A DNA stretch of 64,000 nt. Source: Spiroplasma sp. GTDB lineage: Bacteria > Bacillota_I > Bacilli_A > Mycoplasmatales > MT37. The translations under genes were made by a program, and so were the position numbers. The DNA lies in the NCBI GenBank assembly GCA_965226525.1, contig OZ245361.1:468938-532937 (forward strand), in the 5' to 3' direction. The notes under the pieces were generated by a model. It did no database searches. It had not been told where the DNA came from and was given only the letters and a program-made list of their open reading frames with translations. Numbering within the stretch: position 1 is the stretch's first letter; each line of letters begins with the position of its first letter. Below, piece by piece: positions 27,109-44,879 of the stretch.

Positions 27109-27138
27109 CTGAACTGTTTTGTAGGAGGTTTGGTGTAA

Positions 27139-27234: not shown

Positions 27235-27276
27235 TTATATTCTGAGTCTTTTAACATTTAGTTAGAAGAAAGTTTT

Positions 27277-27312
27277 AAAAAAACCAGGATGTTTTTTTCA
27301 TCCTGGTTTTTT
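27277..27312. terminator. Bidirectional intrinsic terminator between the small Cys-rich ORF (+) and uvrC (-)
   Basis: AAAAAAACCAGGATG-TTTTTTT-CATCCTGGTTTTTT is a perfect GC-containing stem flanked by an A-run and a T-run. The uvrC stop lies at 27318-27320. Confidence 0.8.
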
Positions 27313-27317
27313 GTTTT

Positions 27318-28916
27318 CTATTCTTCTTTCTGTCTTGCTTTTTTCCTTCTTAAGTAATGAAGGTTTTTAATTACGTATTCATGACCTTGAGTTTGAATTG
27401 AGTTTAGAAAAAGTCAGGTTTTGCTTGTTTTTTTGATTTGGATTCTTTGCCCTTGACTGTCTAGAATGTATTCAGTTTGGTGTTTTTTGTTTTTCACTAG
27501 GCAGATTATGTGACAATCTTTTTTCAAAAGTTCCATTCCTGCTTTTACTCCTTGAAGTTGCAAAAAACTACCATCCAAAATGATTAATTTAGGTAGTGGG
27601 TTTTTTTGATAATGAAGAGTAATAGCTTTTTTGAAATACTCTTTTTCATTGTGTAATACCCCTTTTATTTGATAAATTTTGTTTTTTCTAGTTAAAAAAA
27701 AACCATTTAAGTAGTGGGTAAAGCCAGCAACTACTAATTTTTCATCAAAGTAAGATAGATCTAAAAATTCAATTTGTTTAATATTTTCTTCTTTTATTTT
27801 TAACTTTATTGCTAAATCTTTAAGAATTTGTATTTTGTCAGTTTGTTTTGCAACAACCGCCTTATTTTTCAATAAAATTAAGGCATTTTTTTTGACAAGA
27901 TCTAAGATTTCTTTTTTTTTGCCTGTTTGAGGAGAAATTAATTTAACTGAACAATTTTTGCTTCAGTTTTTTAAATTCACTTCTCTAGGAGCGATTATTT
28001 CTTCTGGTAGCGGGTGGTAAGTATAGATTTCTTGCAAGAAGTTTTCTATTGTTTCTTGCCTGTTGTTGTTAAAAAGACTGAATAAACCTTCTTTTTTGAG
28101 TTGTAGTTTGCCATGTTGATAGAAAAAAATTACAATTACAATTTCTTCTTCTTCCTCAACAAAGTTAATAAAATCAAGATTTTTATTATTATTGAACTCT
28201 ACTTTTTGTTTTTGGACAAATTCATCAATTTTTTCTGTTAATTTCTTTCATTTTTCTGCTTCTTCAAAATGCAAAATTTTCACTGCTTGGACAATTTTTT
28301 GTTGACATTGTTTTTTAATTTTACTTACTTTACCCTGAAAAAAAAGTTTTATTTTTCTGATTTGTTTTTGATAATAACTAGGATCTACTTTTTGGAAACA
28401 AGCACCAGAACATTGTTGTAAGTGGTAGTAAAAACATGGTTTTTTTGCTACAAATTTGCTACATCTTCTTAAAGGAAAAAGCATTTTGAGTAAATTAATC
28501 ATTTCTCTGGCATTGTAGTAATTTGGAAAAGGCCCATAGTAGATTCCTGGTTTTTTGATTCTCTTTCAAGTTAGGAAATATTGTGGGTCTTTATCCTTGA
28601 CCGAGATGAGGATGTATGGATATGTTTGACTATCAGTCAGGATAATGTTAAATCTAGGGTGGTATTTCTTGATTAAATTGTGTTCTAAAATGAAAGCCTC
28701 TTTTTCATTATCAGTTATGAAAGTCTCTCATTCTCTGATTGTATTAATCATTAAGGAGGTTTTGCTGTTTTTATTTTGACTTTGAAAATGTTGTCAAATT
28801 CTTTTTTGAATGTTTTTGGCTTTGCCAACATAGATGACATTTCTGCTTGCATCCTTAAATAAATAACAACCTGTTTTTTTAGTTGTGTTTTGTAAAACAC
28901 CTGCAAAGGCCTTCAT
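27318..28916 (-). CDS. uvrC: Excinuclease ABC subunit C; appears to lack the C-terminal (HhH)2 domain
   Basis: GIY-YIG region ([20 protein letters not shown]), a Cys-rich/UVR region (track ORF 28248-28502) and an endonuclease domain (IEFLDLSY..., [15 protein letters not shown]). The product is 532 aa and ends just after ...[20 protein letters not shown]. Confidence 0.85.
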
Positions 28917-29026
28917 TAAAAAGTCTTATTTTTGTATAAAAAAGACATAAAAACCATCAATAATCTACCTTGTTGAACTGATATATGCTATTATAACTGG
29001 AAGGTTCTTATGTTCTTTGTTTTTTG

Positions 29027-29329
29027 ATGAAAAAGATTAAAATTGTTGTTTGTGGTTATGAACACAAGTCTGTAGATGATGCAGTCTCAAGGATAATTGA
29101 GGTTGCACGTTTATCTGGTTCTAAGGTAAGAGGTCCAATTCCTCTTCCTACTAGGAGAGAGGTGTTTACTGTTTTGCGTGGTGTTTTTCGACACAAGGAT
29201 TCTCGTGAACAGTTTGCTAGAAGTCAGCACAAACGTTTACTTGTGGTTTGACTTAACTCAAAGACTACTGATTCATTAAAAAACATTCAGTTGTCAACAA
29301 GTGTAAGTCTTTCTATTAAAACTGTTTAA
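29027..29329 (+). CDS. rpsJ: 30S ribosomal protein S10
   Basis: KIKIVVCGYEHKSVDDAV...VRGPIPLPTRREVFTVLRGVFRHKDSREQF. Confidence 0.95.
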
Positions 29330-29343
29330 GTTTATTGAAAATA

Positions 29344-30114
29344 ATGAAAGGTTTAATTGGTAGAAAAAAAAATGTTTGTCAACTTTTTACAGTTGATGGT
29401 AGTGTTTTGCCTGTAACAATTGTTGAGGTTTTACCTAACTTTGTTAGTCAGGTTAAAACAGAAAAACAAGATGGTTATTCAGCTTTACAGTTAGCAACAG
29501 GTTTTAGAAAAAAGAAAAATTTATCTAAACCTCTCATTCATCATCTTGCTAAGACTGGTTTAAAAGAGAAAAGAGTGATTGCTGAATTTGCTAATATGAA
29601 TAGTTATAAATTGGGTGAGCAGGTTTTAGTTTCCTTGTTTCAGAGTGGAGATTTTGTTAATGTTCAAGCAGTTTCTAAAGGGAAAGGTATGTCTGGTGTC
29701 ATTAAACGTCATAATTTCTCACGTGGTCCAATGACTCATGGTTCTAAACATCATCGTGCTCCTGGTTCTGTGGGACTTTCTCGTCCTGATAAAGTTTGAA
29801 AAGGGCAGCCTTTACCAGGAAGAAAAGGTGGTCAAAAAACAACAGTTAAAAACCTTTTAGTTGTTAAGGTAGATGAACAAAAAAACCTTTTAGTTGTTAA
29901 AGGAACTTTTGCTGGACCTTTAAATTCTTTTTGTAAAATTTACCTAAGTTCTACTAAGTCTAAGACTTCTAGTGTTAGTTTGTTTTCTTTTTTAACAGAT
30001 CAGAAGAATAAAATCAGTTCTGGAGCAGAAAAAATTTCAGTTGGAACAAAGGTTAATAAGGATTTAGGGCAAGAGAAAGAGATTAGTTCTTCATTAAAGG
30101 TAAGCAATGGTTAG
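29344..30114 (+). CDS. rplC: 50S ribosomal protein L3 with a C-terminal extension
   Basis: MKGLIGRKK...GKGMSGVIKRHNFSRGPMTHGSKHHRAPGSVG. TGA at 29797 is read as Trp. TAG stop at 30112-30114. Confidence 0.95.
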
Positions 30115-30805
30115 TTCTACAACAGTTTCAAAAAAGGTTCAGGTAGTTGATAAACCTGTTGAACAAAAGGTTTTTTTTTCTGATTTTGTTTATGATTTTG
30201 CTACAAAGAAGTTGAGAAAAATTGTTTTAGATCCTAAAATTTGAAAGAAAGAGGTAAAAAAACACCTAGTTCAACAGGTTGTTGTTTCTCAACAAGCTTC
30301 TTGACGTTTATTGAATAGAAAGAGGGTTAAGGATCGTTCTGATGTCTCAGGTGGAGGTAAGAAGCCTTGAAAACAAAAAGGTACTGGTAGAGCTCGTCAT
30401 GGTTCCATTCGTTCTCCTCTCTGAAGAGGTGGTGGTGTTACATTTGGACCAACAGGAAAAGAAAACTATGCTAAAAAAAGCAACAGAAAAGTTTTTAGGC
30501 AAGCCCTTACTATGATCTTAGGTAGTTTTTATCAAAGTCAGAATTTGTTGTTATGAAAAGATCAAGATTTTGCAGAAATTAAAACAAAGCAGGTTTTTGA
30601 CCTTTTGGTAAAGTTTAACCTTCTAGAAAAAAAAGTACTTTTTATTGTTGAACAGGGTTTTCCTAATTTACTTTTGAGTGCTAAAAATTTAAAGAATGTA
30701 AAGATTATTTTTGTTCAAAATTTAAATCCTTATGATTTAGTTAATAGTGATAAGTTGTTGTTACAGAGTAGTGTTGTTCCTTTTATTGAAAAATGGTTGG
30801 GATAA
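30107..30805 (+). CDS. rplD: 50S ribosomal protein L4
   Basis: [35 protein letters not shown], with several TGA Trp codons. It overlaps rplC by 8 nt. Confidence 0.95.
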
Positions 30806-30817
30806 AAAATTAAGGTT

Positions 30818-31228
30818 ATGAATTTTTTAGGAGTTTTAAAAAAACCACTGGTTACAGAGAAAAGTTATAAGTTATCTGAGCGACAAAAGTATGTCTTTGT
30901 TGTTTTTCCAGAGGTTAAAAAAACTGATGTTAAGCAAGTTTTTGAAATGATTTTTAATGTTAAGGTACAGAAAGTAAACATTCTTAAGATTAAACCTAAA
31001 CCTAGAAGAATTGGTCGTTTTTCTGGTTATAAAAAAGGTTTTAAAAAAGCAGTTATAACTCTTTTGCCAGGTCAAAAGTTAGATGTTTTTAGTGGTTCTG
31101 ATGACAAGAAAGAGAAGAGTGTTCGTCAAGATAAAAGTTTCTTTGATAGAATTAAAGAGCAGTTTTTAGGTTTGAAAGATCTTAATAATCAACAGTCAAA
31201 TCTAAAGAAAAAAAGTGAAGAAGATTAA
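30818..31228 (+). CDS. rplW: 50S ribosomal protein L23 with a C-terminal extension
   Basis: [13 protein letters not shown]...[19 protein letters not shown]...KKAVITL. Confidence 0.9.
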
Positions 31229-32063
31229 AAAATTAAAACCTGTTAATAACTCTAGTCGAAACACTTTTTTGCCCAACTACAGAGTTGTTTTGACTAATGA
31301 TAAACCAGAAAAAAGTTTGCTGGATAAATTGATAAAAAGATCTGGTCGGAATAATACTGGCAAGATCACAGTTCGTCATCGAGGTGGTGGTTCTTCTCAT
31401 CATTATCGACTTATTGACTTTAAGAGGAGTAAGTTTGGCATTTCTGCCAAAATAAAGACAATTGAATATGATCCAAATCGTAGTTGTTTTATTTCTTTAG
31501 TTGTTTATAGAGATGGAACTAAAAAATATATTTTGTATCCTAAGGGTTTGAAGGTTGGTGATTCTATTATCAGTGGTAAAAATGTTAAAGTACAAACAGG
31601 AAATGCCCTACCTTTATTCCAGATTCCTGGAGGAGTTTTGGTTCATAATGTTGAATTAAGACCTGGTCAAGGCGGAAAACTAATCCGTTCTGCTGGTGCT
31701 TCAGCACAAGTTTTAGGTTTAGATGATAGTCAAAAGTATGTTATTTTGAAGTTAGTTTCTGGTGAAACTCGAAAAATTTTAAAAAATTGTTTTGCTACAG
31801 TTGGAGCGGTTGGTAATGAAGAACACTCTCTAACTAAATATGGTAAAGCTGGTCGTAAACGCTGGTTAGGTGTTCGTCCAACAGTCAGAGGTGCTGCAAT
31901 GAATGCTGTTGACCATCCTCATGGAGGTGGTGAAGGACATGCGCCAATTGGTCGTAGTTCACCCTACACTAAATGGGGTAAACGAGCAATGGGTGTTGTA
32001 ACCCGGAAGAAGAAGCAGTTTTCTTCTCAATTAATTTTGAGAGGAAGAAAAAAAAGAAAATAA
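31215..32063 (+). CDS. rplB: 50S ribosomal protein L2
   Basis: [16 protein letters not shown] and [28 protein letters not shown] start. Confidence 0.95.
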
Positions 32064-32083
32064 AATTGATAGAATAAGGGATT

Positions 32084-32359
32084 ATGGCAAGGTCTCTTAA
32101 GAAAGGTGCATATGCTCATCCCTCATTGTTTGAGAAGTTGGCAAGAATGAAAAAAACAGGCAAGAAGCAGGTTATAAAAACATGAGCTCGTCGTTCAACA
32201 ATTTTTCCTGACTTTGTTGGTTACACTTTTGCTGTTCACAATGGTAAAAAACATCTTCCTGTTTTTGTTACTGAAGAGATGGTTGGTCACAAGTTGGGTG
32301 AGTTTTCCCCCACTCGTCGTTTCGGTGGACACACTCACAACAGAAAAAAAGATAAATAG
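32084..32359 (+). CDS. rpsS: 30S ribosomal protein S19
   Basis: [10 protein letters not shown]...[50 protein letters not shown]. The internal TGA keeps it out of the ORF track. Confidence 0.95.
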
Positions 32360-32367
32360 GATTAGAG

Positions 32368-32730
32368 ATGGTTCAAGCTTTTTTAAAAAATTTACCAATT
32401 ACACCACGCAAAGTTCGTCTAGTAACTGATCTGATTGCTAAAAAACCTCTTGCAAAAGTTTTAACTATTTTAGAAAACAATTATAAAAGAGCTTCACTTC
32501 CTCTTTTTAAGTTATTAAATTCAGCAATTGCTAATGCTACCAACAACTCTAAGTTGAATGCTAATAACTTAGAAATTCAGGTTATTGAAGTTAATGAAGG
32601 GAAGAAATTAAAAAGGTTTAGACCCCGGGCAAAAGGAGCAACATATAAAATTTGAAAACGTTATTCTCATGTCAGAATTGTTCTTGGTGAGTTTAAAAAA
32701 ACAAATTCAGCAATTGATAAAAAAGAGTAG
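32368..32730 (+). CDS. rplV: 50S ribosomal protein L22
   Basis: [26 protein letters not shown]...[24 protein letters not shown]. Confidence 0.95.
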
Positions 32731-32732
32731 TT

Positions 32733-33416
32733 ATGGGTCAGAAAGTTAGTCCGCTAGGTTTACGTTTAGGTATTAATCAAAATTGGAGGTCTCGTTGGTC
32801 AGCGCCAAAGGGAAAGTTGAGTCTTTGAATCAAAGAAGATTTACTTATTCGCCAAACTTTAAAAAAAGTTTTAAGCAATGCCTTTATTGCTAAGGTAGAA
32901 ATTGAGAGACAAGATGAAATTATCTACATCTTTTTGTGATCATCACATCTAGGTGCTGTTTTGGGACAAGGCAATAAAAATGTTGAAAGAATTGTTTTCA
33001 TTTTAAAGAAAGTTCTAAAAAAACGTTTTTGTAAAATTAGAATTAAAGTTAATGAGGTAAAAAATCCTCACTTGAATGCTCAATTGATAGCAAATGATAT
33101 TGCTTATAAAATTGTTAACCGAGAAAATTATCGAGTTGTGCAAAAACAAGCAATTAAAGGTGCTATTCGCTCAGGTGCTAGAGGTATTAAAGTAGCAATT
33201 GCTGGTCGTTTAAATGGTGCTGATATTGCTCGCCGAGAGTATTTAAGTGAAGGAAAAATTCCTCTTTCTACTCTCAGTGCTAACATTGATTATGGAGCAG
33301 CGCAGTCACTAACTGGATATGGTCAAGTTGGAGTTAAAGTTTGAATTTGCCATGATAATTTATCAGCAAAATCTGGAGTTAGAGAAAAAATGTTTGTAGA
33401 AAAGGAGAAATTTTAG
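32733..33416 (+). CDS. rpsC: 30S ribosomal protein S3
   Basis: [22 protein letters not shown]... and a KH domain. It joins track ORF 32961 in frame. Confidence 0.95.
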
Positions 33417-33418
33417 TA

Positions 33419-33835
33419 ATGCTTTTACCTAAAAAAACAATTTGAAGAAAGCCTCACCGAGTTAAATATGATGGTCTTGCTAAAGGAGCTAAAACTGTTA
33501 GTTTTGGTGAGTATGGATTACAAGCACTGCAAGGAAATTGAATAACTAACAACCAGATTGAAGCGGCAAGAGTTGCAATTAATCGTTTTATTAAGAAGGA
33601 AGGAAAGATGTGAATTCGTATTTTCCCCCATTTTGCTAAGACTGCAAAACCAATTCAGGTAAGGATGGGTTCAGGAAAAGGCAATGTTGAAAAGTGGGTA
33701 GCAGTTGCTAAAAGGGGAACAGTTCTTTTTGAGGTTGGTGGTGTTGGTGTTCAGTTGGCAAAAAAAGCTATTTATGCTGCAGGCAACAAGTTACCAATTA
33801 AATGAAAGTTTGTCAGTAAAGAAAAGGAGGTTTAG
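33419..33835 (+). CDS. rplP: 50S ribosomal protein L16
   Basis: [19 protein letters not shown]...[23 protein letters not shown]. Four TGA Trp codons keep it out of the track. Confidence 0.95.
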
Positions 33836-33840
33836 GTTAC

Positions 33841-34050
33841 ATGAGTACTATGAAAGAGTTTTTAAAACTGGAACCAAAAAAACTTCAGGAGAAGTTACAG
33901 GAGTTGAAAGGCAGACTTTTTGTTTTAAGATTTCAGATTGCCAATGGTAAAACCAATAAATACAGTGATGTGAGAAAATTAAAAGTCCAAATTGCTCAGG
34001 TTCTTACCATTTTTAATCAGTACCAAGTGAAGAAAAAGGTTGCTTCCTAG
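33841..34050 (+). CDS. rpmC: 50S ribosomal protein L29
   Basis: EFLKLEPKKLQEKLQELKGRLFVLRFQIANGKTNKYSDVRKLKVQIAQV. Confidence 0.9.
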   Translation: MSTMKEFLKLEPKKLQEKLQELKGRLFVLRFQIANGKTNKYSDVRKLKVQIAQVLTIFNQYQVKKKVAS

Positions 34051-34087
34051 TTTGTTAATTTTGGAGTTTACAACTAATTAAAAGTTA

Positions 34088-36949
34088 ATGAAGAAAAGTG
34101 TTGTTAAAAACAAGATAATTAAGACCAACCAAAGCATGACCAGACTCATGAATAGGAAGAAAAGTGCTGTTAAAAACAAGACAATTAAGACTATTTCTTG
34201 AACAAAGAGGTTAAAAGATCGATTTCTTTTTTTCCTAACCCCTAAAATTTCTGATAGGTTATCTGCTTTTTTGGAATATTGAAGTAGTTTAAAACCTTTA
34301 CTTTCTAAGATAAAAATATTGAATTTAGACCTTGATAAAGAAGATTTTTGAAAAAAAACAGGTTTAAATTGAAAAAGAAATGTTAATGTTGAAGGTGATT
34401 TGACACAACAGACTTTACTTGAGATTAAAAATAATCAAAAAATGATTATCAAAATTGCTGATAATTTGGATCAGAGTTTGTTACAAAAACTCTTGTCTTC
34501 TAAGGTAGATCAACACTTGCAAATGATTCAACCTTTACTTGCAGATGTTCAAATTTTTACACCATTGAACAACCTGTCAATTTGGCAAAACACAGGTTTA
34601 GTCTGGTCTGAAGATTTTGATAAAAAAGGAAAGATTAAGGAACACAAAATGGGCATTCTTTTAGAAGAAAATAATGCCAAATTTTTTTTAGCTATTTTTG
34701 AGATCCAACCTACTTTCTTGCTTGGTTTTCTTTTCCAACAGATTTTTCACCATTGAGAAGTAGTGAGAAGTGATTTTTGCAGGATTAAAAAAATTTTTTT
34801 TCCTTCTGATGATGATTTGATTTTTTGATCCCATTTTGAATTAAAAAAATCTTTTTTTGACAGTAATTGTTGTTTAAAGAAGGAAGATTATCTTCTACCA
34901 CTTTTGCAAAAAAGAAAGGTTGATTTGTTAAAAATTAAAGCAGTTAATGAAGTTAAGGTTCAACAGTTTGTTCTGAAAACAGTATTGAAATCTTGAATTA
35001 AAAACTCTTCACTGTTACAAAAAATCAAAAGTTTGAATCTCAGTCTTAGTTCAGAAATGAAGTGGAACAACTCTGGTCTGAATTTAGTTTATGATTTTAC
35101 TGAAGCAGGAAAATTCAGCAAGGAAGGTGAAAAAAAAATTGGTAAATATAAGACTGGTCAGTTATTAAAAATTCACTATGATTTTACTCCACATTTTTTT
35201 ATTGGTTTTTTAAAAAAACAGATTTTAAATCATTGAAAAATTCTGCAAAATTATCTCCAGAAGTTAATAAAGATTGATAGTTCTTTTTTTCAAGACAGTG
35301 GTTGAATCAGTTTGGAAATAGACATAAAAAGAGATCTTGATTCTAATTGGTTTTTTAGACCTTTGACAGATGAAAAAATTTATTCTTGAAAAACAAACAG
35401 TTTGTATCATTTTTTTAACTTGAATGCTAGTTTTTTAAGTAAAAAAATTATTGATGGAATTGAAATTCATTGAGATAAAATTTCTGTACCTTTACAAAAG
35501 GTTTTGATTTTTGATAAACAAAAGTTTATTGATTTACCAGTTTGAAAACAAACTGGTCTCAAGATTGAAACTGATTTGCAAGAAAATTGCAAATTGTTTT
35601 TTTCTGTTTTAAGGGATGTTGCTAATTTTTCTCTAGAGCAAATCTTGGCAATTAAAAAAATTAATGTTGTTTTTTTAAAGAAATTTTTTTTAGATGTTTT
35701 TCGTCAACACTGAAAGAATTTAGTTCCTGTTTTTAAAGTTGCTAAAAGTAGGAATTGTAATCTTTCTAATCAAGATTTTTGGTTTTTAACTAACCTGAGT
35801 TGAGAAACTGATCTGCAAGCTGATGGTTGATTAACTGCAAATACTATGGAAACTATTTTAAATAAGACAATTAAACAAATAACTGCAATTAAAAATCTAG
35901 ATGCTGTTAGTGTCAGAGAATTTTTGAATGTTTTTTCAGAAAGAAAAACAGAGTTAAGTGTTGCTAAAACAGGTAAAAAATTAGTGGTATCTAGTTTTTG
36001 ATCAAAGGTGAAAAGTTTTTTTGGTTTTCGAGAAAAAAAGCAACGTTCTATTCAAAATCGTTTAGAAAATAGTGTAAGTTTGAACAGTTTAGATCTGCAT
36101 AAAACCATTAAGAATCTTAATGATTATAAAAAAAGGATTACTACTTTGAAAAATCTACGAAAAGATTATTCTAATTCAATTATTAGTGATCAAGACATTG
36201 TTGCTACAGGGGTAGTAGGTATTCAACCTAAACGTTTTATTGCAGAACTTGAAGGTGTGACAAAATATTTTTTAACTGGCAACAGTCTCAGTCAAGTTAT
36301 TCAAAAAACTTATCTGAAGATTAAAACTGGTGATTTTGTTGTTGTTTTAGGTCCATCAGGAGCTGGTAAAAGCACCCTTTTGAATTTGATTTCAGGAATT
36401 GATAGTCCTGATGGTGGTGATTTATTTGTGGATGGCATCAATTTAACTTTGCTTGATGAAGCTGGTTTGACTGACTTTCGTCGTAAATACATTGGTTTTG
36501 TTTTTCAACAGTATAACTTATTGCAAAATTTAACAGCAGGAGAAAACGTTGATGTAGTGGCTACTCTTTTGCCTGAGGAAAAGGAACCATTGAATATGAA
36601 AGAAATTTTTCAACTCTTAGGTATAGAAACCCTTTTGGATAAATATCCATTTCAACTTTCTGGTGGTCAACAACAAAGGTTTTCTATTGCCAGAGCACTG
36701 GCAAAAAATCCTGATATTCTCTTTTGTGATGAACCTACTGGAGCATTAGACCAAGAAATGTCCAAAAAAGTAATGCAGATTCTTTTTAAAATCAACCAAA
36801 AGTATGGAACAACAATTATTCTGGTCACTCATAATCAAATTTTTTCTCAAATTGCTAAGACAGTTTTTCATTTTATTAATGGTAAAGTGGTTAAGATTTT
36901 AGAGAACAAAAAACAGTTAGAACCTAAAGACATTAGTTTTCAATACTAG
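34088..36949 (+). CDS. 953-codon ORF: about 640 aa of novel Trp-rich tandem-module N-terminal region in frame with a MacB/LolD-type ABC transporter ATP-binding domain
   Basis: I checked codon by codon and found no TAA or TAG in frame from ATG 34088 to TAG 36947-36949. Track ORFs 34400, 35033 and 36008 all lie in this frame, separated only by TGA. C-terminal motifs: GPSGAGKSTLLN (Walker A), LSGGQQQR (signature) and ILFCDEPTGALD (Walker B). The ATPase could also initiate internally at GTG 36008. Confidence 0.75.
34090..34191 (+). repeat. Direct repeat of 36 nt (2 mismatches), copies at 34090-34125 and 34156-34191, offset 66 nt in frame
   Basis: GAAGAAAAGTGTTGTTAAAAACAAGATAATTAAGAC versus GAAGAAAAGTGCTGTTAAAAACAAGACAATTAAGAC. 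The copies encode KKSVVKNKIIKT and KKSAVKNKTIKT at the N-terminus of the large ORF. Confidence 0.9.
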
Positions 36950-36963
36950 TTTATTTTAATTTG

Positions 36964-38442
36964 ATGACATCTGAACAATTAGTGCGTTTTAAAAAGTTGG
37001 AAAAATTAATTTCTAATCAACAAAATCCCTTTTTTAATTATTTTTTGCCTCGCAATCAGATTGGCAACTTATTGAAGTTTAATCATTTGACTAGAGAAGA
37101 AATTTTTCAAAAAAAAGCAAAAATAAACTGCCAAATTGCTGGTCGTCTTTTGCAAATTCGTAATTTTGGTAATTTAATTTTTGCTAAAATTGTTGATGCT
37201 ACTGGAGAAATTCAAATTTTAGTAGATAAGAAAAGAAGCGGAGACAATCTTTTAAGGCAGTTTATGGATTATGATCGGGGTGATATTATTGCCCTGAAGA
37301 AGGCAGAATTGATGAAAAGTAACTCTAATGAATTAACAATTTTGGTTTTTTCTGTAGTTTTACTGGTTAAAAGTTTACAAACCTTTCCAGAAAAATATCA
37401 CGGTTTAGTTGATACTGAAATTTGTTATCGTCAACGTTATTTAGATTTGTTGTTAAACAAAAATGTTCGCAATGTTTTCCAAAAAAGGTCACAAATTGTT
37501 CAAGAAATTAGAAATTTTCTTAACTGCAAAAAGTTTCTGGAGGTAGAAACACCAGTTCTTCACCCTGTTTTAGGAGGGGCTGCTGCCACTCCATTTCAGA
37601 CTTTTCACAATGCTTTAAAAACACCTTTTTATCTACGTATAGCGCCTGAGTTATACCTTAAGCAATTAATTGTGGGTGGTTTGGAAAAAGTTTATGAAAT
37701 AGGTCGGTTGTTTCGTAATGAAGGCATTTCTTCCAAACACAATCCTGAATTTAGTGCTATTGAAATTTATCAAGCTTATGGCAATATGAAAACAATGATG
37801 GAATTGGCAGAACAACTTTTGTCTCATCTTAGTCAAAAGTTGTTTCAAAAATATGATTTTTTGTACCAGAACCAAAGAATTAGTTTTCAACCTCCTTTTA
37901 AAAAAGTAAAAATGTTGGATTTAGTTTTTTCTGTTACTGGATTTGATTTTAGAAAGATTACCACTTTAGAGGTTGCTATTCAGGTTGCTAAAAAACTAAA
38001 AATAGTTGTTTTACCTTATCAAAAAACAATTGGTCATATTTTAAATTTAGTTTTTGAAAAACATTGTCAAGAACAGTTGATCCAACCAACTTTTGTTTAT
38101 CAATATCCCATCGAAGTTTCTCCCTTTGCTAAACAGTTGAGTTCTGATTCTCAATACACAGAAAGGTTTGAACTTTTTATCGCTGGTCAAGAAGTGGCTA
38201 ATGCTTTTTCTGAGTTAAATGATCCACAAGAACAAAAAAGAAGGTTGGAAGCACAATTGAAAGAAAGAAAATTAGGAAATGTTGAAACAAATGAAATTGA
38301 TCAAGATTATCTTTTGGCTTTGCACTATGGTTTGCCACCAACAGGTGGGATTGGTTTAGGCATTGATCGATTGGTAATGCTTTTGACTAATCAAAGCAAC
38401 ATTCGAGATGTTATTCTTTTTCCTACCCTTAAAAGAAAGTAG
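36964..38442 (+). CDS. lysS: Lysine--tRNA ligase (class II)
   Basis: YRQRYLDLL, FLEVETPVL, FRNEGISSKHNPEFSAIEIYQAY and GGIGLGIDRLVMLLT. Start is ATG 36964 (TTG 36961 is an alternative). Confidence 0.95.
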   Translation: MTSEQLVRFKKLEKLISNQQNPFFNYFLPRNQIGNLLKFNHLTREEIFQKKAKINCQIAGRLLQIRNFGNLIFAKIVDATGEIQILVDKKRSGDNLLRQFMDYDRGDIIALKKAELMKSNSNELTILVFSVVLLVKSLQTFPEKYHGLVDTEICYRQRYLDLLLNKNVRNVFQKRSQIVQEIRNFLNCKKFLEVETPVLHPVLGGAAATPFQTFHNALKTPFYLRIAPELYLKQLIVGGLEKVYEIGRLFRNEGISSKHNPEFSAIEIYQAYGNMKTMMELAEQLLSHLSQKLFQKYDFLYQNQRISFQPPFKKVKMLDLVFSVTGFDFRKITTLEVAIQVAKKLKIVVLPYQKTIGHILNLVFEKHCQEQLIQPTFVYQYPIEVSPFAKQLSSDSQYTERFELFIAGQEVANAFSELNDPQEQKRRLEAQLKERKLGNVETNEIDQDYLLALHYGLPPTGGIGLGIDRLVMLLTNQSNIRDVILFPTLKRK

Positions 38443-38478
38443 AAGATGTTTTTAATCTCCTTTAATGAGGGTTCTTTA

Positions 38479-38487
38479 TGTTAAAAT
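38479..38487 (+). promoter_or_regulatory. Extended -10 element TGTTAAAAT upstream of rpsQ; an internal promoter restarting the spc cluster after the insertion
   Basis: TGnTAAAAT lies 12 nt before the rpsQ ATG. No SD sequence is evident in between. Confidence 0.45.
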
Positions 38488-38499
38488 TTATCTGTTTGT

Positions 38500-38883
38500 A
38501 TGAATTCTAAGGTTTTGTTAGTTCAGGAACAATCAACAAGGTTTATTCCTCCCAAAAAGAAGAAATTTACTTTGGTTGGTAAAGTAGTTCAAAATGTTTT
38601 GGATAAAACAGCCACAGTTGAAGTTGTTAGAAAATTTCGACACTCTGTTTATCAAAAAACTGTTTTTAGAACAAAGAAATATTTAGTTCATGATCCTGAT
38701 AACAAAATGAATTTAGGTGATCAGGTCTTAATTGCTAATACCAAAAAAATTTCTCTGAGAAAAAGTTTTTTTTTGGTGAAGATTTTGAAAAAAAGTACTT
38801 TTATTTCAGATGGCAAGGAGAAACCAGCAAAGGATACTGGCAGCACTTTTTCAGATGATTCTGGTATGAAAAAAACACTTTAA
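38500..38883 (+). CDS. rpsQ: 30S ribosomal protein S17 with N- and C-terminal extensions
   Basis: [56 protein letters not shown]. Confidence 0.9.
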
Positions 38884-39248
38884 TGATTCAGAAAGAGACA
38901 AGGTTAAAAGTTGTTGATAACACTGGGGCTAAGGAAGTTTTGGTGATTTGTAATTTAACTTCAGCAAGCAGTTTTGCTTCTGTTGGTGATGTAGTAGTGG
39001 CAACAGTTAAAATTGCTCTGCCTTCAGGTTTGGTAAAAAAAGGAGAGGTTGTTCAAGCAGTTGTTGTCCGAACAAAATTTCCTATTCAAAGAAAAGATGG
39101 TCAAACTGTTCAGTTTAATGAAAATGCAGCAGTAATTATTAATAAAAACAAAACTCCCAGAGGAACTAGGATTTTTGGTCCTGTTGCTAATGAATTAAGA
39201 TGGAAAGGTTTTGGTAAAATAATTTCTTTGGTTGAGGAAGTTGTTTAG
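38883..39248 (+). CDS. rplN: 50S ribosomal protein L14
   Basis: [22 protein letters not shown]...[26 protein letters not shown]. Confidence 0.95.
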
Positions 39249-39259
39249 AGAATTTTGTG

Positions 39260-39568
39260 ATGCGAATTAAAAAAGGAGATTTTGTTCGAGTAATTGCTGG
39301 TAAACACAAAGCAACTGAAGGTCAAGTTGTTAAGATTGATCATCAAAGTTGTTCTGTCTTTTTAGAAGAAATTAAAGTTAAAAAACATCAAAAACCTACT
39401 CAAGAAAAAGGTAAAGGTCAAATTGTAGAAATCCATTGACCAGTTCATGTTTCTAATGTTATGGCTTTAGATCCAAGAAAAAAAGTGTTGACTCGTATAG
39501 GTTATAAGTTTAAGGATAATAGAAAACTGCGTTTTGCTAAAAAAACTGGTGAGGAGTACCCTAATTAA
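39260..39568 (+). CDS. rplX: 50S ribosomal protein L24
   Basis: [26 protein letters not shown] (KOW domain). TGA at 39437 is read as Trp. TAA stop at 39566-39568. Confidence 0.9.
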
Positions 39569-39575
39569 AGAAATA

Positions 39576-40124
39576 ATGGAACACAATCTTTTTTTACATT
39601 TTAGAGATAATTTGTTGTTTCAACTGCAAAAAGAGGGTAATTATTCTTCAGTTATGGCTGTTCCTCGTTTAGTAAAATTAGTGGTGAGTATGTGTGTTAA
39701 GCAAGCAGTGCAAGACCACAAGGCTTTGGATGATGCTTTTAATGAACTAACTTTAATTACTGGGCAAAAACCAACCATTACAAAAGCTAGAAAATCAATT
39801 GCCGGTTTTAAAATTCGTCAAGGGATGCCAATTGGTTGCAAAGTTACTTTACGTGGTCAAAGAATGTATGATTTTATTTTTCGTCTAATTCACATTATTT
39901 TTCCCCGGATTAGTGATTTTCAAGGTTTAAGTATCAATGCTTTTGATGGTGAAGGTAATTACAGCATTGGTATTAAAGAAGAAGTTATTTTTCCAGAAAT
40001 TGATTATGATAAATTAAAATTTAACAAGGGGTTTGGCATTACTTTGGTTACTAGTTGTAAAAAAAAGGAGGAAACTTTATTTTTGCTAAGAAAATTAGGT
40101 TTTCCTCTAAAAAAGAAGGTTTAA
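39576..40124 (+). CDS. rplE: 50S ribosomal protein L5
   Basis: [14 protein letters not shown]...[34 protein letters not shown]...FPEIDYDK. Confidence 0.95.
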
Positions 40125-40128
40125 AAAA

Positions 40129-40314
40129 ATGGCACGCAAAGCATTAGTTTCAAAGCAAAAAAAATACAAAAAGTTTTCTACTCGTAATTATACTCGTTGT
40201 AACTCTTGTGGTTGGCAACGTTCTGTTTTACGTAAATTTATGCTTTGCAGAATTTGTTTTCGCCACTTTGCTCACCAAGGTTTGATTCCTGGGGTTAAGA
40301 AGGCATCTTGATAA
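40129..40314 (+). CDS. rpsN: 30S ribosomal protein S14, Zn-ribbon (type Z)
   Basis: [12 protein letters not shown]...CNSCG...[22 protein letters not shown], with the terminal Trp encoded by TGA. Confidence 0.95.
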
Positions 40315-40319
40315 AGGAA

Positions 40320-40708
40320 ATGATTAGTGATCAAGTTGGTGATTTGTTAACAAGAATTCGAAATGCAACTAGGGCAGGCAAGGTTAAATGCTCAGTTCCT
40401 GCCTCTAAGTTGAAAAGGGAGGTTTTGCGAATTCTTCTACAAGAGGGTTATATTTTGGTTATCAAACTGTTGCTCAAAAGCATTCTGTGTTCACAATTGA
40501 TCTTAAGTATAAAGGTAAAATCTCAGTGATCCAGGAAATTAAGAGGGTGTCTAAACCAGGATTACGTATTTATGTGAAAAAGAAGAAGATACCACTTGTT
40601 TTGAGAGGTATTGGCATTGCTATTTTGTCTACTTCATCTGGAGTAATGACTGGTAGGGAGGCAAAAAATAAAAATGTAGGAGGAGAAATTCTTTCATATG
40701 TTTGATAG
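40320..40708 (+). CDS. rpsH: 30S ribosomal protein S8, interrupted by an apparent 1-nt frameshift near 40455-40459
   Basis: The N-terminal half [46 protein letters not shown] is in frame 0. The C-terminal half [40 protein letters not shown]...GGEILSYVW is in frame 2 (the -1 frame). Confidence 0.85.
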
Positions 40709-40725
40709 TTTATTTGGTTGTTTTT

Positions 40726-41286
40726 ATGTCTAGAATTGGTAAAAGATTATTAAAAGTTCCCAAGGATGTTTCCTTGTATTTTTCTCCTGATTTTGTTAAT
40801 GTTCAGGTTACTGGTCCGCTGGGTTCTATCAAAAAAAGGTTGTCAGGTTTAGTTGCTATTAATGTTCAAGATGGCGTTGTCCAAACTGATTGTATAAAAA
40901 AAAATGATAAAAGTAGTCAACAAATGTGAGGAACAACAAATGCTTTGTTAAAGAATTGAATGATTGGTGTTACAAAAGGTTTTCAAAAGAAGATATTGAT
41001 TAAAGGTTTGGGTTATAAGGTTAAACTGTTATCTGAAAAGATTTTACAATTGTATTTAGGTTTTTCTCATCCAATTAATTATCAAATACCAGAGGGCATT
41101 AGTGTTGAGGTTTTGCAAAATGTTGATTTGATAATTAAAGGAGTAGATAAGGATTTAGTAGGATTAGTTGCTAGTCAAATTCATAAAATGAAGAAGAAAG
41201 ATCCTTACAAAGGTAAGGGAGTTTTTTATGAAGGTGAAAAAATAACTTTAAAAGTTGGTAAAACAGCAACAAAAAAACAAAGTTAA
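40726..41286 (+). CDS. rplF: 50S ribosomal protein L6
   Basis: MSRIGKRLLKVPKDVS... Track ORFs 40702 and 40960 are in the same frame via TGA. Confidence 0.95.
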
Positions 41287-41296
41287 GGTTAAATAG

Positions 41297-41644
41297 ATGA
41301 GAGATTTTAAAAAGAGAAGAAACATCAGACATTTTCGGATTAGAAAAAAGGTTTTTGGTACAGAAACTAAACCTCGTTTATCAGTTTTTGTTTCTAACAA
41401 ACATTTTTATGCTCAGATTATTAATGATGAAACTTCTCATACATTAGTTGCTTATTCAACTTTAAATTTATCTAATTTTCAAGGTAACAATCAAAAGATT
41501 GTTGTTCAAATTGGCAAAATGATTGCTTTATTAGCAATTAAAAAAAGGATTAAAAAGGTAGTTTTTGACCGGGGAGGTTTTCTTTTTCATGGTAAAGTTA
41601 AAGCATTTGCTAATGCTGCTAGAAAAAATGGGTTAGAATTTTAG
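41297..41644 (+). CDS. rplR: 50S ribosomal protein L18
   Basis: RLSVFVSNKHFYAQIINDE...VVFDRGGFLFHGKVKAFANAARKNGLEF. Confidence 0.95.
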   Translation: MRDFKKRRNIRHFRIRKKVFGTETKPRLSVFVSNKHFYAQIINDETSHTLVAYSTLNLSNFQGNNQKIVVQIGKMIALLAIKKRIKKVVFDRGGFLFHGKVKAFANAARKNGLEF

Positions 41645-41646
41645 GG

Positions 41647-42384
41647 ATGGAAAAAATAGAAAAGAAAAAAGTCTTGATTAATAATCAGTTTAGTTCTCAA
41701 AATGTTTCTAAAGCAGAGAGTAATTTAACAAAACCTAGTTCTGATGCTTCTGAAAAAGCAAGTAAAGACGCTTTAAGAAAGGTAAATGAAGGCAAAGTTG
41801 ATAATCTAGATTTCAATGCTGAAATTAAAAAAGAACAAGAAAGTAAGTATAAAGAACAAGAGAAAAGAAAGATTTTATGAAGAAAAAGCAGCTGAAAGAA
41901 AAGAACAATATCAAAAAACAATTATCATTTGATTGAAGTTAAAAGGGTTATTAAGGTGACTAAAGGAGGAAGAAGGTTTCGTTTTTTTGCTGTAGCTTTA
42001 GTTGGTGATGGTAAGAATCAGGTTGGTTTTGGCACAGGTAAAGCCAATGAAGTTGTCACTGCTAAGCAGAAGGCATTTTTTCAAGCAGAAAAGAATATGA
42101 TTTCAGTAGTTTCTGTCAATGGTACTATTCCTCACAAAGTAGTTGGTAAGTTTTGTGGTTCCAAAATTATTCTAAAACCAGCCACTCAGGGAGCAGGCAT
42201 CTTACTTGGTAGTGCTGCCCGGATGGTTGTTAAGCTTTCAGGAATTACTGATATTTCTGGTAAATCTTTGGGTTCTAACAATAAAATGAATTTAATTCGA
42301 GCCACTCTAAACGCTTTAGAACAGTTACGAACAAGAGAAGAAGTGTTAAGATTAAGGGATTTAAGTAAAAGTTTAGAGGTTTAA
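41647..42384 (+). CDS. rpsE: 30S ribosomal protein S5 with an N-terminal Lys/Glu/Ser-rich extension of about 93 aa
   Basis: The core is LIEVKRVIKVTKGGRRFRFFAVALVGDGKNQVGFGTGKANEV. Track ORFs 41647 and 41929 are in the same frame via TGA. Confidence 0.9.
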
Positions 42385-42387
42385 GTT

Positions 42388-42855
42388 ATGACAAAAGCAA
42401 AAGTAGAAATTAGTTTAAAATTACATAATCTTGAAGTTTTAAAACCTAGTAAAAAGATCAAACGTTTAGGCAGGGGAACAGGTTCTGGCCATGGAAAAAC
42501 TGCTTCCTTTGGTAATAAAGGGCAGAAATCTCGTTCAGGTCACAAATTTGGTGCTAATTTTGAAGGTGGTCAAATGCCTTTTCACCGCCGAATTCCCAAA
42601 AAAAGAGGTTTTGCTAGATTTAAGAAATTAGTTTATCAGACTGTTAATTTATACCAAATTGATCAGAAAAAACTAAAAATTGTTGATCATAAAACTCTTT
42701 ATCATCAAGGATTGATTGCTAGTTTGAAACTTCCAGTTAAAATTTTAGCATTTGGTGCATTAACATCACCTGTGGATTTTAAGGTTAATGCCTTTTCTAA
42801 GAAAGCAGTACAAAAAATTACATCTAATCAGGGCAAGATTATTCCTATTGCTTAA
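42388..42855 (+). CDS. rplO: 50S ribosomal protein L15
   Basis: RLGRGTGSGHGKTASFGNKGQKSRSG...EGGQMPFHRRIPKKRGF. Confidence 0.95.
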   Translation: MTKAKVEISLKLHNLEVLKPSKKIKRLGRGTGSGHGKTASFGNKGQKSRSGHKFGANFEGGQMPFHRRIPKKRGFARFKKLVYQTVNLYQIDQKKLKIVDHKTLYHQGLIASLKLPVKILAFGALTSPVDFKVNAFSKKAVQKITSNQGKIIPIA

Positions 42856-42859
42856 ACAA

Positions 42860-44212
42860 ATGTGAAAAAAAGTTTTTAATTTTTTTCAAACTAATAGCAA
42901 GATTTTTCAGAGGGTTTTGTTTACTCTTTTTATTTTGATTCTTTTTCGTGTTGGTGCTTTAATCACTATGCCAGGTGTTCAGTGATCAGGAACTGATACA
43001 GGTGATTTTAGTCAGTTTTTAACATTATTGTCACTTCTAGGTGGTGGAGTTATTAGTCGTCTTTCTCTTTTTGCTCTCGGTATTTCACCTTTTATTACTG
43101 CTTCCATTATTGTGCAGTTACTTTCTAGTGGTTTAATTCCACCAATTAGCAAATGAGCAAAACAAGGACATTATGGACAAGTAAGATTGAATTATTTAAC
43201 TAAGTTTTTAACTGTTCCAATTGGTTATTTACAATCTTTTGCAATCATTAAGTCGCTTGAGAATGGTAATTTGATTGTTGTAAATTGGTCAATTGCGGGT
43301 TATCACAATGCTTTGTTTTATTATTTCCTTTGCCCTCTTGTTTTAATTGCTGGAACAATGATTACTCTTTTGCTTGCTGATTTAATTTCCTTTAAAGGAA
43401 TTGGTCAGGGTATTTCTGTAATTATTTTTACTGGTATTTTAGTTTCAGTAGTTTATCAATTTGAAAGTGCAGGAAAATTTTTGTTTACAGATATTGACAA
43501 CATTAATCAGATTTTTTTTAATTTTAATCGGTTTTTTATTTATCTGCTTGCTATTTTTTTTCTTTTGTATTTAATCATCTTTTTAAACAACTCCCAACGT
43601 CATATTCCTATTCAACAGATTAGGTCTGGTTTGCATTTAAGTGATGAAAAACGTCCTTATTTACCCATTAAATTGAATCCATCAGGAGTGATTCCTGTTA
43701 TTTTTGCTTCAACATTGTTCTCTCTTTTTAGTTCTATTTCTGAAATTGTTAAAAATAGTGATCCTGAAAACAGTTATGTAATTTTTGTTCAAGATTATTT
43801 AGGTTTGACTTCCTGAAGTGGTATGGCTATTTTTGCTTTTTTGGTTTTTGTTTTTGCTCTGCTGTATGCCCATATTATTATTAATAGTGAAAATTTAGCT
43901 GAAAATTTCAGAAAAGGCGGAGTTTATATTCCAGGAGTTGATCCTGGTGATGAAACAAAGAATTATATTACCTATATAGTTAATCGTTTAACATTTTTTG
44001 GTGCCTTTTATTTAACCTTTTTAAGTGTTTTTTCTTTACTTTTAACTAAGTTATTATTTCCAGACCAATTGAGTTCTTTTGCTGTTAGTGGAACTAGTTT
44101 GCTTATCTTAGTTTTAGTTGGTGAAAGCATTATTTATCAGATTTTTGATCTTAAAACTCAGGTTAAGTATTTGCATCTTTGAAAAAGAAAAAAAGATTTT
44201 TTTTTATGATAA
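42860..44212 (+). CDS. secY: Preprotein translocase subunit SecY
   Basis: MWKKVFNFF...[16 protein letters not shown]...[19 protein letters not shown]. Track ORFs 43187 and 43823 are in the same frame. TAA stop at 44210-44212. Confidence 0.95.
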
Positions 44213-44216
44213 AAAA

Positions 44217-44879
44217 ATGAAAGTTGTGGTTTTAATTGGTCTTCCTGGTTCTGGCAAGAGTTTTTATTCTGAATGGTTAAAAAACACACAATCTTTTTTT
44301 CACCTTTCCTCTGGAGACATTTGTCGTCTTAATCCAGATTTTGTTGATCCTGTTTCTCAAAAAACTGTTGCTGAAATAATTGCAAGTGGCGAACTGGTTT
44401 CTCCTGGATTAATTGGTAGTTTAATTGATCAAAAACTTCAAGAGTTACCAAAAGAAACGAAAGTGGTTCTAGATGGTTTTCCTCGTAATTTAGCACAAAA
44501 TCAACAATGAATAAAAATGGTAACTAAAAATAAGTGGGAGGTGCTTTTTTTTGTTTTAAAGTGCTCAATTAGTCTAGCTAAGAAAAGAATTGCTGACCGA
44601 CTTATTTGTCCTTATTGCCAGAGAGTTTATAATTTGCAACTTCAACCTCCCTTGCACAATGGTCGATGTGATAGTGATGATCATTCTTTGATTGTTCGTT
44701 CTGATAGTATTAAATTTGAACAACGTCTGGCAACTTTTGTTAATCAAACCCAACCAATGATTGAAGTTGTTGCTCAGAGTAAAAAATTTGTATGTTGTTT
44801 TTTTGATGTTTCTAAAAATAAAAGTTTTGCAGTTAAAAAAGCCATGCTTGATACTTTCCAAAAATATGCGTTTAATTAA
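44217..44879 (+). CDS. adk: Adenylate kinase
   Basis: GLPGSGKS P-loop and a LID region with CPYCQRVYN...GRCDSDD. Track ORFs 44118 and 44517 are in the same frame. Confidence 0.9.

What the first reader, a model, noticed from the sequence alone, without database searches (positions are those of the whole stretch)
34051..38499. S10-spc ribosomal-protein operon split by a 4.4-kb insertion between rpmC and rpsQ
rpsJ-rplCDWB-rpsS-rplV-rpsC-rplP-rpmC is normally followed directly by rpsQ-rplNXE..., one of the most conserved gene strings in bacteria. Here rpmC ends at 34050 and rpsQ starts at 38500.

The gap holds a 953-codon ORF (novel repeats plus an ABC ATPase) and lysS, all on the same strand. 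I see no terminator after rpmC.

An extended -10 element, TGTTAAAAT (38479-38487), lies 12 nt before the rpsQ ATG. This suggests the spc half acquired or retains its own promoter. The transporter ATPase and LysRS would be co-transcribed with ribosomal proteins.
Basis: partly seen in the sequence, partly recalled or inferred. Interest (0 to 1): 0.6.

Follow-up and report, generated by a model that had tools for sequence, protein, structure and literature searches.

The report
Old two-gene insertion splitting ribosomal-protein cluster
In a family of tiny-genome marine Mollicutes, a transporter ATPase gene and the only lysyl-tRNA synthetase gene were inserted long ago between ribosomal-protein genes rpmC and rpsQ, and a conserved promoter-like box now sits before rpsQ; it is a rare but ordinary kind of gene-order change.

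Summary
rpmC ends at 34050 and rpsQ starts at 38500. Between them, on the same strand, lie a 953-codon gene (seven orphan ~79-aa modules plus a MacB/LolD-type ABC ATPase domain) and lysS, the genome's only lysyl-tRNA synthetase gene.

It is not a recent insertion. The same rpmC-ABC-lysS-rpsQ order occurs in three of the four other genomes of the family, across two further genera. The fourth keeps rpmC-ABC-lysS but has since moved rpsQ and the spc genes elsewhere. A LysS tree makes the family one clade, so the event is ancestral.

Across the order, lysS is usually linked to this ATPase and its FtsX-type permease. Only the ATPase-lysS end moved; the permeases lie more than 340 kb away. In 119 other genomes of the class, none has a gene between L29 and S17.

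No terminator or family-wide promoter box lies after rpmC, so read-through from the S10 promoter is likely. The box TGTTAAAAT (TGATAAAAT in one genome) lies before rpsQ in all five genomes within otherwise unalignable spacers. This supports an rpsQ promoter.

Verdict: real, rare, lineage-wide, and a known kind of event. Interest is modest.

The parts
29024..33835 (+). Upstream half of the ribosomal-protein cluster, rpsJ to rplP (S10, L3, L4, L23, L2, S19, L22, S3, L16).
   Evidence: ORF list. Pfam hits for S10, S3 and L16. The other genes are named from their order and length only.
33841..34050 (+). rpmC (L29), the last ribosomal-protein gene before the interruption.
   Evidence: Ribosomal_L29 E=1.4e-12; TIGR00012 above its cut-off.
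34051..34087 (+). 37-nt spacer between rpmC and the ABC gene. No terminator. It contains TGTTAATTT, which is shared only with the genus-mate.
   Evidence: and 80 (folding z = 0.06).
34088..36949 (+). 953-aa gene: basic N-terminus, seven tandem ~79-aa helical modules (about 34271-35938), a basic linker, and a MacB/LolD/FtsE-type ABC ATPase domain (about residues 715-950, nt 36230-36949).
   Evidence: Modules. AlphaFold2 model of one module: pLDDT 89.4, with no PDB fold match. It is the only ATPase of this type in the genome.
36964..38442 (+). lysS, class II lysyl-tRNA synthetase, single copy in the genome.
   Evidence: TIGR00499 583 bits against a cut-off of 427.6. (no second copy). (clusters with the family in the tree).
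38443..38499 (+). 57-nt spacer between lysS and rpsQ, with no stable hairpin.
   Evidence: and 80 (z = -0.38).
38479..38487 (+). TGTTAAAAT, a candidate extended -10 promoter box 12 nt before the rpsQ ATG. It implies a near-leaderless mRNA.
   Evidence: The same box lies before rpsQ in all four relatives of the family. Genome-wide there are 135 TGNTAWAAT sites; 36% fall in the 17% of the genome that is intergenic.
38500..38883 (+). rpsQ (S17), with a C-terminal tail of about 35 aa.
38883..42855 (+). Downstream ribosomal-protein genes rplN to rplO (L14, L24, L5, S14, S8 in two frames, L6, L18, S5, L15), followed by secY.
   Evidence: Pfam hits for L14, L24, L5, S14, S8 and L6. The remaining genes are named from their order.

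Best explanation
Evolutionary part.
In the common ancestor of this family of extremely reduced Mollicutes, a two-gene block moved into the last spacer of the S10 unit, between rpmC and rpsQ. The family is probably Oceanoplasmataceae, symbionts of marine invertebrates. The block was the ATPase-lysS end of an order-wide, same-strand cluster: FtsX-type permease(s), a MacB/LolD-type ABC ATPase, and lysS. The permease genes stayed behind. In this genome they are three tandem genes of about 1950 codons, more than 340 kb away. The block has been inherited vertically since. One descendant lineage later moved rpsQ and the spc genes elsewhere, following the 'invasion then separation' pattern described for this gene cluster.

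Expression part (inferred, not shown).
The ATPase and lysS have no conserved promoter and no upstream terminator of their own, and they are tightly packed together. They are therefore most likely transcribed by read-through from the S10 promoter. A conserved extended -10 box directly before rpsQ starts a second transcript. This transcript tops up expression of rpsQ and the following ribosomal-protein genes. In this genus its leader would be only a few nucleotides long.
For: Same arrangement in relatives.
- L29-ABC-lysS-S17 in the same order and strand occurs in G001 (same genus), and in G003 and G004 (another genus).
- G002 has L29-ABC-lysS on one contig. Its S17-L14-L24-L5 genes follow ligA-gatCAB-DHH on the other contig.

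Ancestral state.
- In the LysS maximum-likelihood tree the family is monophyletic (100/99).
- The branching is (g3,(g2,g1)) at 83/81, so the shared order spans the family root.

Origin of the block.
- In other families, the best match to this ATPase sits beside FtsX permease genes and lysS.
- The cluster orders seen are permease-ABC-lysS (G017, G027, G035, G015, G025, G037), ABC-permease-lysS (G013, G032, G006, G007, G020, G014), and lysS-permease-ABC (G016, G026, G034).
- In this genome FtsX domains occur only at 135-156 kb, and no other MacB-type ATPase exists.

Not mobile or foreign.
- No flanking repeats.
- GC of 26-32% is typical for the genome.
- lysS is single copy.

Expression.
- rpmC-ABC spacers are about 20-120 nt, with no terminator and no box shared across genera.
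- ABC and lysS are 4-14 nt apart or overlap by 7 nt in all five genomes.
- TGTTAAAAT or TGATAAAAT lies before rpsQ in all five, at 11-65 nt from the start codon, in spacers that otherwise do not align.

Rarity.
- None of 119 resolved genomes of the class has a gene between L29 and S17.

Pattern.
- Brandis 2021 (PMC8046335) describes invasion followed by separation for this cluster.
Against: - No transcript data exist here, so read-through and the rpsQ promoter rest on sequence alone.
- The two genomes of this genus share TGTTAATTT before the ABC gene. It could be a weak promoter, or only shared ancestry.
- G001 and G003 have an A/U-only hairpin followed by a U run between lysS and the box. This may terminate transcription there. 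This genome has none.
- TGNTAWAAT is only about twofold enriched in intergenic DNA, so one occurrence alone is weak evidence.
- The node placing g2 with g1 has moderate support (83/81) and comes from one protein.
- The family name rests on one fact: the two contigs of G002 sum to 424,539 bp, the published size of Ca. Spiroplasma holothuricola.
Confidence: 0.72

Rival explanations
1. The cluster is interrupted physically but not transcriptionally. Transcription from the S10 promoter stops after rpmC by a mechanism with no hairpin signature. ABC-lysS is then a separate, low-level unit driven by a weak box such as TGTTAATTT, and rpsQ and the genes after it form a third unit.
For: - TGTTAATTT lies 25-40 nt before the ABC start in both genomes of this genus.
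- A transporter ATPase and a synthetase should need far fewer copies than ribosomal proteins (inference).
- The conserved box before rpsQ shows that the downstream genes do not rely on read-through.
Against: - No terminator-like structure lies after rpmC.
- In G002, G003 and G004 the rpmC-ABC spacer is only about 20-35 nt, with no -10-like box. That leaves little room for both a terminator and a promoter.
Confidence: 0.18
2. The placement is functional. The ATPase with its orphan N-terminal modules, and LysRS, are kept inside the ribosomal-protein cluster because they act with the translation machinery. On this view the order-wide ATPase-lysS linkage reflects a shared task rather than inertia.
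For: - The ATPase-lysS linkage persists across many families of the order even where the permeases have moved (G010, G009 and this family).
- The arrangement has survived the divergence of three genera with about 50% LysS identity.
- The N-terminal extension is present in all five genomes, at 430-700 aa.
Against: - The ATPase domain is an ordinary single MacB/LolD-type domain, not the double-domain ABC-F type that acts on ribosomes.
- Matching FtsX permeases exist in the genome and have no other ATPase partner.
- The N-terminal extensions are not alignable between genera.
- Tight gene packing in reduced genomes can preserve neighbours without any shared function (inference).
Confidence: 0.07
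3. The block is a recent horizontal acquisition, a mobile-element insertion or a misassembly specific to this genome.
For: None beyond the unusual position.
Against: - Four independent assemblies of relatives carry the same order.
- LysS groups with the family.
- lysS is the only copy in the genome.
- There are no flanking repeats or mobility genes.
- Base composition is typical.
- The genome is a single contig.
Confidence: 0.02

Closest known systems
[quoted passage not shown]
   Same: A few unrelated genes enter the conserved cluster. In a descendant (G002) the two halves then drift fully apart. The inserted genes come from the same genome, not from a distant donor.
   Different: Most of the events quoted there fall between operons. 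Here the entry point is inside the S10 unit, between rpmC and rpsQ. The cargo is an essential aminoacyl-tRNA synthetase plus an orphaned transporter ATPase. That study's text does not mention Mycoplasma or Mollicutes by name. I did not check its supplementary event tables.
Canonical S10-spc-alpha ribosomal-protein cluster of Bacilli and Mollicutes
   Same: All flanking genes are in the standard order on one strand with short spacers.
   Different: The rpmC-rpsQ contact is broken by 4.4 kb. That contact is kept in 119 of 120 sampled genomes of the class. No rpmD ORF of at least 50 aa was listed between rpsE and rplO.
MacB/LolCDE/FtsEX-type ABC systems (separate ATPase plus FtsX-domain permease)
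   Same: Walker A, Q-loop, signature, Walker B and H-loop motifs are all present. The best profile matches are DevA, MacB, LolD and FtsE ATPases. Partner-type permeases are present in the genome.
   Different: The ATPase gene is unlinked from its permeases. It also carries a 700-aa N-terminal extension of seven orphan helical modules, with no sequence or fold relatives found outside its genus-mate.
Internal promoters within the long ribosomal-protein clusters of Gram-positive bacteria (B. subtilis S10-spc-alpha; from my own knowledge of Li et al. 1997, not read here)
   Same: One long cluster, with read-through plus additional internal promoter(s).
   Different: Here the internal promoter candidate sits exactly at the downstream edge of an inserted block. 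It would give a nearly leaderless rpsQ mRNA in this genus.

Membership tests
Contiguous S10-spc ribosomal-protein cluster | Standard gene order rpsJ...rplP-rpmC-rpsQ-rplN... on one strand | tested here: met
   the gene order is standard on both sides of the gap.
Contiguous S10-spc ribosomal-protein cluster | rpmC directly followed by rpsQ | tested here: not met
   A 4,449-nt gap holds two genes. The two genes are adjacent in 119 of 120 other genomes of the class.
Bacterial class II lysyl-tRNA synthetase (LysS, TIGR00499) | Full-length match above the curated cut-off, with an OB anticodon-binding domain and a class II core | tested here: met
   583 bits against a cut-off of 427.6. tRNA_anti-codon and tRNA-synt_2 domains are present. 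It is the only copy in the genome.
MacB/LolD/FtsE-type ABC ATPase | Single nucleotide-binding domain with intact Walker A (GPSGAGKST), signature (LSGGQQQR), Walker B (LFCDEPT) and H-loop | tested here: met
   Sequence. ABC_tran E=9e-31. Top NCBIfam hits are DevA, MacB, LolD and FtsE, all below their equivalog cut-offs, so no specific subfamily is assigned.
MacB/LolD/FtsE-type ABC ATPase | Encoded next to its FtsX-domain permease | tested here: not met
   FtsX domains occur only at genome positions 135-156 kb; the ATPase is at 503 kb. They are adjacent in most other families.
Mobile element or horizontally acquired island | Flanking direct or inverted repeats, mobility genes, odd composition, or patchy distribution among relatives | tested here: not met
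   No boundary repeats. Only two housekeeping-type genes are present. GC is typical. The block is present in all five family genomes, and LysS is monophyletic for the family.
Extended -10 (TGnTATAAT-type) promoter | TG, one base, then a TAtAAT-like hexamer upstream of a gene, conserved among relatives | tested here: met
   TGTTAAAAT at 38479-38487. The same or a near-identical box lies before rpsQ in G001-G004.
Extended -10 (TGnTATAAT-type) promoter | A transcript 5' end 5-9 nt downstream of the box | not testable with these tools
Invasion-separation rearrangement (Brandis 2021) | A small insertion shared by a clade, with full separation of the flanks in a nested lineage | tested here: met
   The insertion is shared by g1 and g3. 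In G002 (g2) the rpsQ-spc genes are on another contig behind ligA-gatCAB-DHH.

The most novel reading that the evidence does not exclude
The ATPase with its seven orphan helical modules, and LysRS, may be held inside the ribosomal-protein cluster because they work with the translation apparatus. They could, for example, couple membrane transport or lysine supply to ribosome output. In that case the order-wide ATPase-lysS linkage would mark an unrecognised functional pair in Mollicutes.
Probability: 0.07. Interest if true: 0.7.

Novelty: new member of a known kind. Interest (0 to 1): 0.3.

Why it matters
- It gives a clean, rare gene-order marker for a recently recognised family of highly reduced marine symbionts. 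None of 119 resolved genomes of the class shares it.
- It is a worked example of how even the most conserved bacterial gene string gets broken. A neighbour-pair of genes enters, a promoter-like box is kept at the downstream edge, and later the halves separate.
- It shows that lysS and a MacB-type transporter ATPase are linked across Mollicutes, which has no explanation yet.
- It does not change what is known about ribosomal-protein gene regulation.

Tried and rejected
- Naming the organism: a scan of genome contigs with LysS found nothing, because the window's own genome is withheld. A scan with the genus-mate's ORF returned only 'MAG: Mollicutes bacterium'.
- Known RNA elements: an Rfam scan of 27000-47000 at E<=0.1 found nothing. 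There is therefore no known ribosomal-protein leader, T-box or riboswitch in or around the block.
- Mobile element: no boundary repeats were found; rejected.
- N-terminal modules:
  - Pfam gave only a sub-threshold villin-headpiece hit.
  - The 5.8-billion-protein search found only the protein itself.
  - A PDB profile search gave one coiled-coil artefact.
  - A fold search of a confident model (pLDDT 89) gave no match better than E=2.
  - A two-module alignment slipped by one module and was discarded.
- Other breaks at the same junction turned out to be different things:
  - G036, G138 and G153 have long L29 tails, with no inserted gene. I read the sequence only for G036. For G138 and G153 this is inferred from the open-frame length and the size of the gap.
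  - G038 has an S3-like gene there.
  - G039 has a scattered cluster.
  - G065 has the two genes on different contigs; this is unresolved.
- Loci from other genomes were mostly not available in the Python box. Synteny was therefore read from search tables and ORF lists.
Full report
**1. What is there**

Read with the Mycoplasma code (TGA=W), the window carries the usual ribosomal-protein string on the + strand, from rpsJ (29024) to rplO (42855) and then secY. The identities of S10, S3, L16, L14, L24, L5, S14, S8 and L6 were confirmed.

- rpmC is 33841-34050 (L29).
- rpsQ is 38500-38883 (S17).
- Between them are two genes on the same strand.
  - A 953-codon ORF at 34088-36949, with 16 in-frame TGA codons.
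  - lysS at 36964-38442.
- The spacers are 37, 14 and 57 nt.

lysS is a full-length class II lysyl-tRNA synthetase (TIGR00499, 583 bits against a cut-off of 427.6). It is the only such gene in the 609,297-bp single-contig genome.

The C-terminal 240 residues of the large ORF form a single ABC ATPase domain with all catalytic motifs. It lies closest to the DevA, MacB, LolD and FtsE group, below every equivalog cut-off.

**2. How unusual the position is**

I located L29 and S17 in 120 other genomes of the class that are at least 90% complete.

- In 119 the two genes are neighbours.
- Where the gap is larger (G036, G138, G153) it is accounted for by a long C-terminal tail on L29. I read the sequence only for G036; for the other two this is inferred from the open-frame length and the gap size.
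- In one fragmented assembly (G065) the two genes lie on different contigs, which I could not resolve.

In the closer sample of 36 genomes from 14 other families of the order, 34 keep the contact.

- G038 has an S3-like gene between the two.
- G039 has a scattered cluster with a solitary S17.

So a gene inserted at this junction is rare.

One correction to the title: in E. coli rpsQ closes the S10 operon. The break is therefore inside the S10 unit, one gene before the S10/spc border (established knowledge).

**3. It is old and family-wide**

All four other genomes of the family carry L29, a long ABC ORF and lysS in the same order and on the same strand.

| Genome | Genus | ABC ORF length | S17 follows lysS? 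|
|---|---|---|---|
| G000 (this window) | g1 | 953 aa | yes |
| G001 | g1 | 900 aa, 37% identical over its length | yes |
| G003 | g3 | 775 aa | yes |
| G004 | g3 | 759 aa | yes |
| G002 | g2 | 723 aa | no |

- In G002, lysS is followed by a convergent gene.
- In G002, S17-L14-L24-L5 lie on the other contig, behind ligA-gatC-gatA-gatB and a DHH-family gene.

A maximum-likelihood LysS tree of the five genomes plus eight other families makes the family monophyletic (100/99). It branches as (g3,(g2,g1)) with 83/81 support.

The shared order therefore spans the root of the family, and the G002 state is a later separation. This matches the 'invasion then separation' course that Brandis (2021, PMC8046335) inferred for this cluster; in that study 67% of 115 events trace back to gene insertions.

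It agrees with this result but is not independent evidence.

**4. Where the block came from**

In the other families of the order, the best match to this ATPase lies beside genes with FtsX permease domains, and very often beside lysS, all on one strand.

- Permease-ABC-lysS: G017, G027, G035, G015, G025, G037.
- ABC-permease(s)-lysS: G013, G032, G006, G007, G020, G014.
- lysS-permease-ABC: G016, G026, G034.
- ABC-lysS without a nearby permease also occurs in G010 and G009.

In this family only the ATPase and lysS sit in the ribosomal cluster. The FtsX domains of G000 lie at 135-156 kb, in three tandem genes of 1949-1965 codons that are 94-97% identical. No ATPase gene lies next to them.

The simplest reading is that the ATPase-lysS end of an ancestral cluster moved as a unit and the permease genes stayed behind.

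Nothing suggests a mobile element or a foreign origin:

- no boundary repeats;
- typical base composition;
- no mobility genes.

**5. Expression signals**

*After rpmC.* There is no terminator-like site and no stable fold (z = 0.06). In G002, G003 and G004 the spacer is only about 20-35 nt and has no -10-like box. The two genomes of this genus share TGTTAATTT there, which may be a weak promoter or merely shared ancestry.

*ABC to lysS.* The two genes are 4-14 nt apart or overlap by 7 nt in all five genomes. This fits a single transcript.

*Before rpsQ.* All five genomes have an extended -10 box in spacers that otherwise do not align.

| Genome | Box | Distance to the rpsQ start |
|---|---|---|
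| G000 | TGTTAAAAT | 12 nt |
| G001 | TGTTAAAAT | 11 nt before ATGATG (see note below) |
| G002 | TGATAAAAT | 19 nt |
| G003 | TGTTAAAAT | about 55 nt, followed by AAGGAG |
| G004 | TGTTAAAAT, two tandem copies | about 65 nt |

- Note on G001: the ORF-finder's earlier ATG lies inside the box. The N-terminus MNSK matches G000, which supports the later start.
- A rough composition estimate, by hand and not from a tool, puts the chance of one such box in an 85-nt spacer at about 1%.
- Genome-wide, 135 TGNTAWAAT sites exist, and 36% fall in the 17% of the genome that is intergenic. A single site is weak evidence. The conservation across three genera is the real argument, including in G002 where rpsQ has a different upstream neighbour.
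- G001 and G003 also have an A/U-only hairpin with a U run between lysS and the box. G000 has none.
- Rfam finds no known regulatory RNA anywhere in 27000-47000.

I therefore consider read-through from the S10 promoter into ABC-lysS likely. A second start before rpsQ is also likely; in this genus it would give a leader of only a few nucleotides. Both are inferences.

**6. The large ORF**

- Residues 62-617 are seven tandem modules of about 79 aa.
- Their recurring pattern is HW...L..IK......FW..T.L.W..D...G.L......I.AIKK....FL..F.
- The genus-mate has seven matching modules.
- The N-terminal extensions of G002, G003 and G004 (430-520 aa) are not recognisably similar.
- A search of 5.8 billion proteins found only the protein itself.
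- A model of one module, built from the 14 copies, is confident: pLDDT 89.4, five short helices.
- The model has no PDB neighbour better than E=2, and a profile search of PDB sequences gave nothing meaningful.
- The function of this part is unknown.
- Because the ORF is the only MacB-type ATPase in the genome, and the three giant FtsX permeases have no other partner, the protein most likely powers them (inference).

**7. Who this is**

- The genus-mate is an unnamed 'MAG: Mollicutes bacterium'.
- The two contigs of G002 sum to 143,947 + 280,592 = 424,539 bp.
- That is exactly the published size, in two contigs, of Ca. Spiroplasma holothuricola, which Vohsen et al. (2024, PMC11535214) place in the family Oceanoplasmataceae.
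- So the family is probably that one.
- That paper's main text does not contain 'ribosomal protein', 'lysS' or 'synteny'.
- A search for papers holding rpmC, rpsQ and lysS returned 13 papers. Judged from their titles and abstracts only, none appears to describe this arrangement.

**8. Verdict**

The arrangement is a rare, ancestral, vertically inherited two-gene insertion inside the S10 unit, and it is a good marker for the family. It is a new example of a known kind of event, and interest is modest.

Noticed in passing
window 40308-40708: rpsH (S8) is split between two frames. ORF 40308-40646 matches S8 profile positions 1-62, and ORF 40487-40708 matches positions 54-126. This could be a frameshift, a sequencing error or programmed slippage in an essential gene.
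   Followed up: partly
genome C1:135371-156162 (outside the window): Three tandem genes of 1949-1965 codons are 94-97% identical, and each carries two FtsX permease domains. Together they take about 3.5% of a 609-kb genome. No ATPase gene lies beside them. They are the likely partners of the ATPase in the ribosomal cluster.
   Followed up: partly
window 34090-34125 and 34156-34191: A 36-nt in-frame direct repeat, 94% identical and 66 nt apart, duplicates the basic N-terminus of the 953-aa ORF.
   Followed up: partly
L026 1977-3230 (G038:C1, minus strand): In another Mollicute family, a 417-aa gene sits between rpmC (244 aa, with a long Pro/Ala/Lys tail) and rpsQ. It has an S3-like N-terminus and an unrelated C-terminal domain of about 130 aa. 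This is either a displaced or a second rpsC.
   Followed up: no
L027 1252-2511 (G036:C1): L29 is 419 aa long, with about 14 copies of a PKPAPAPKKEVVA repeat. G138 (550-aa frame) and G153 (311-aa frame) have similar long L29 frames.
   Followed up: no
L028 6970-7170 and L029 5288-5548 (G039:C1): In a very reduced family (f8), the cluster ends after rpmC, which is followed by non-ribosomal genes. rpsQ stands alone 343 kb away and is followed by a small membrane ORF instead of rplN.
   Followed up: no
window 38500-38883 and 41647-42384: S17 (127 aa) and S5 (245 aa) carry long charged extensions. No rpmD ORF of at least 50 aa was listed between rpsE and rplO, which are 3 nt apart.
   Followed up: no
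relatives G005-G040: lysS is linked on the same strand to a MacB-type ABC transporter (ATPase plus FtsX permeases) in most families of the order, in three different internal orders. I know of no functional reason for this linkage.
   Followed up: partly
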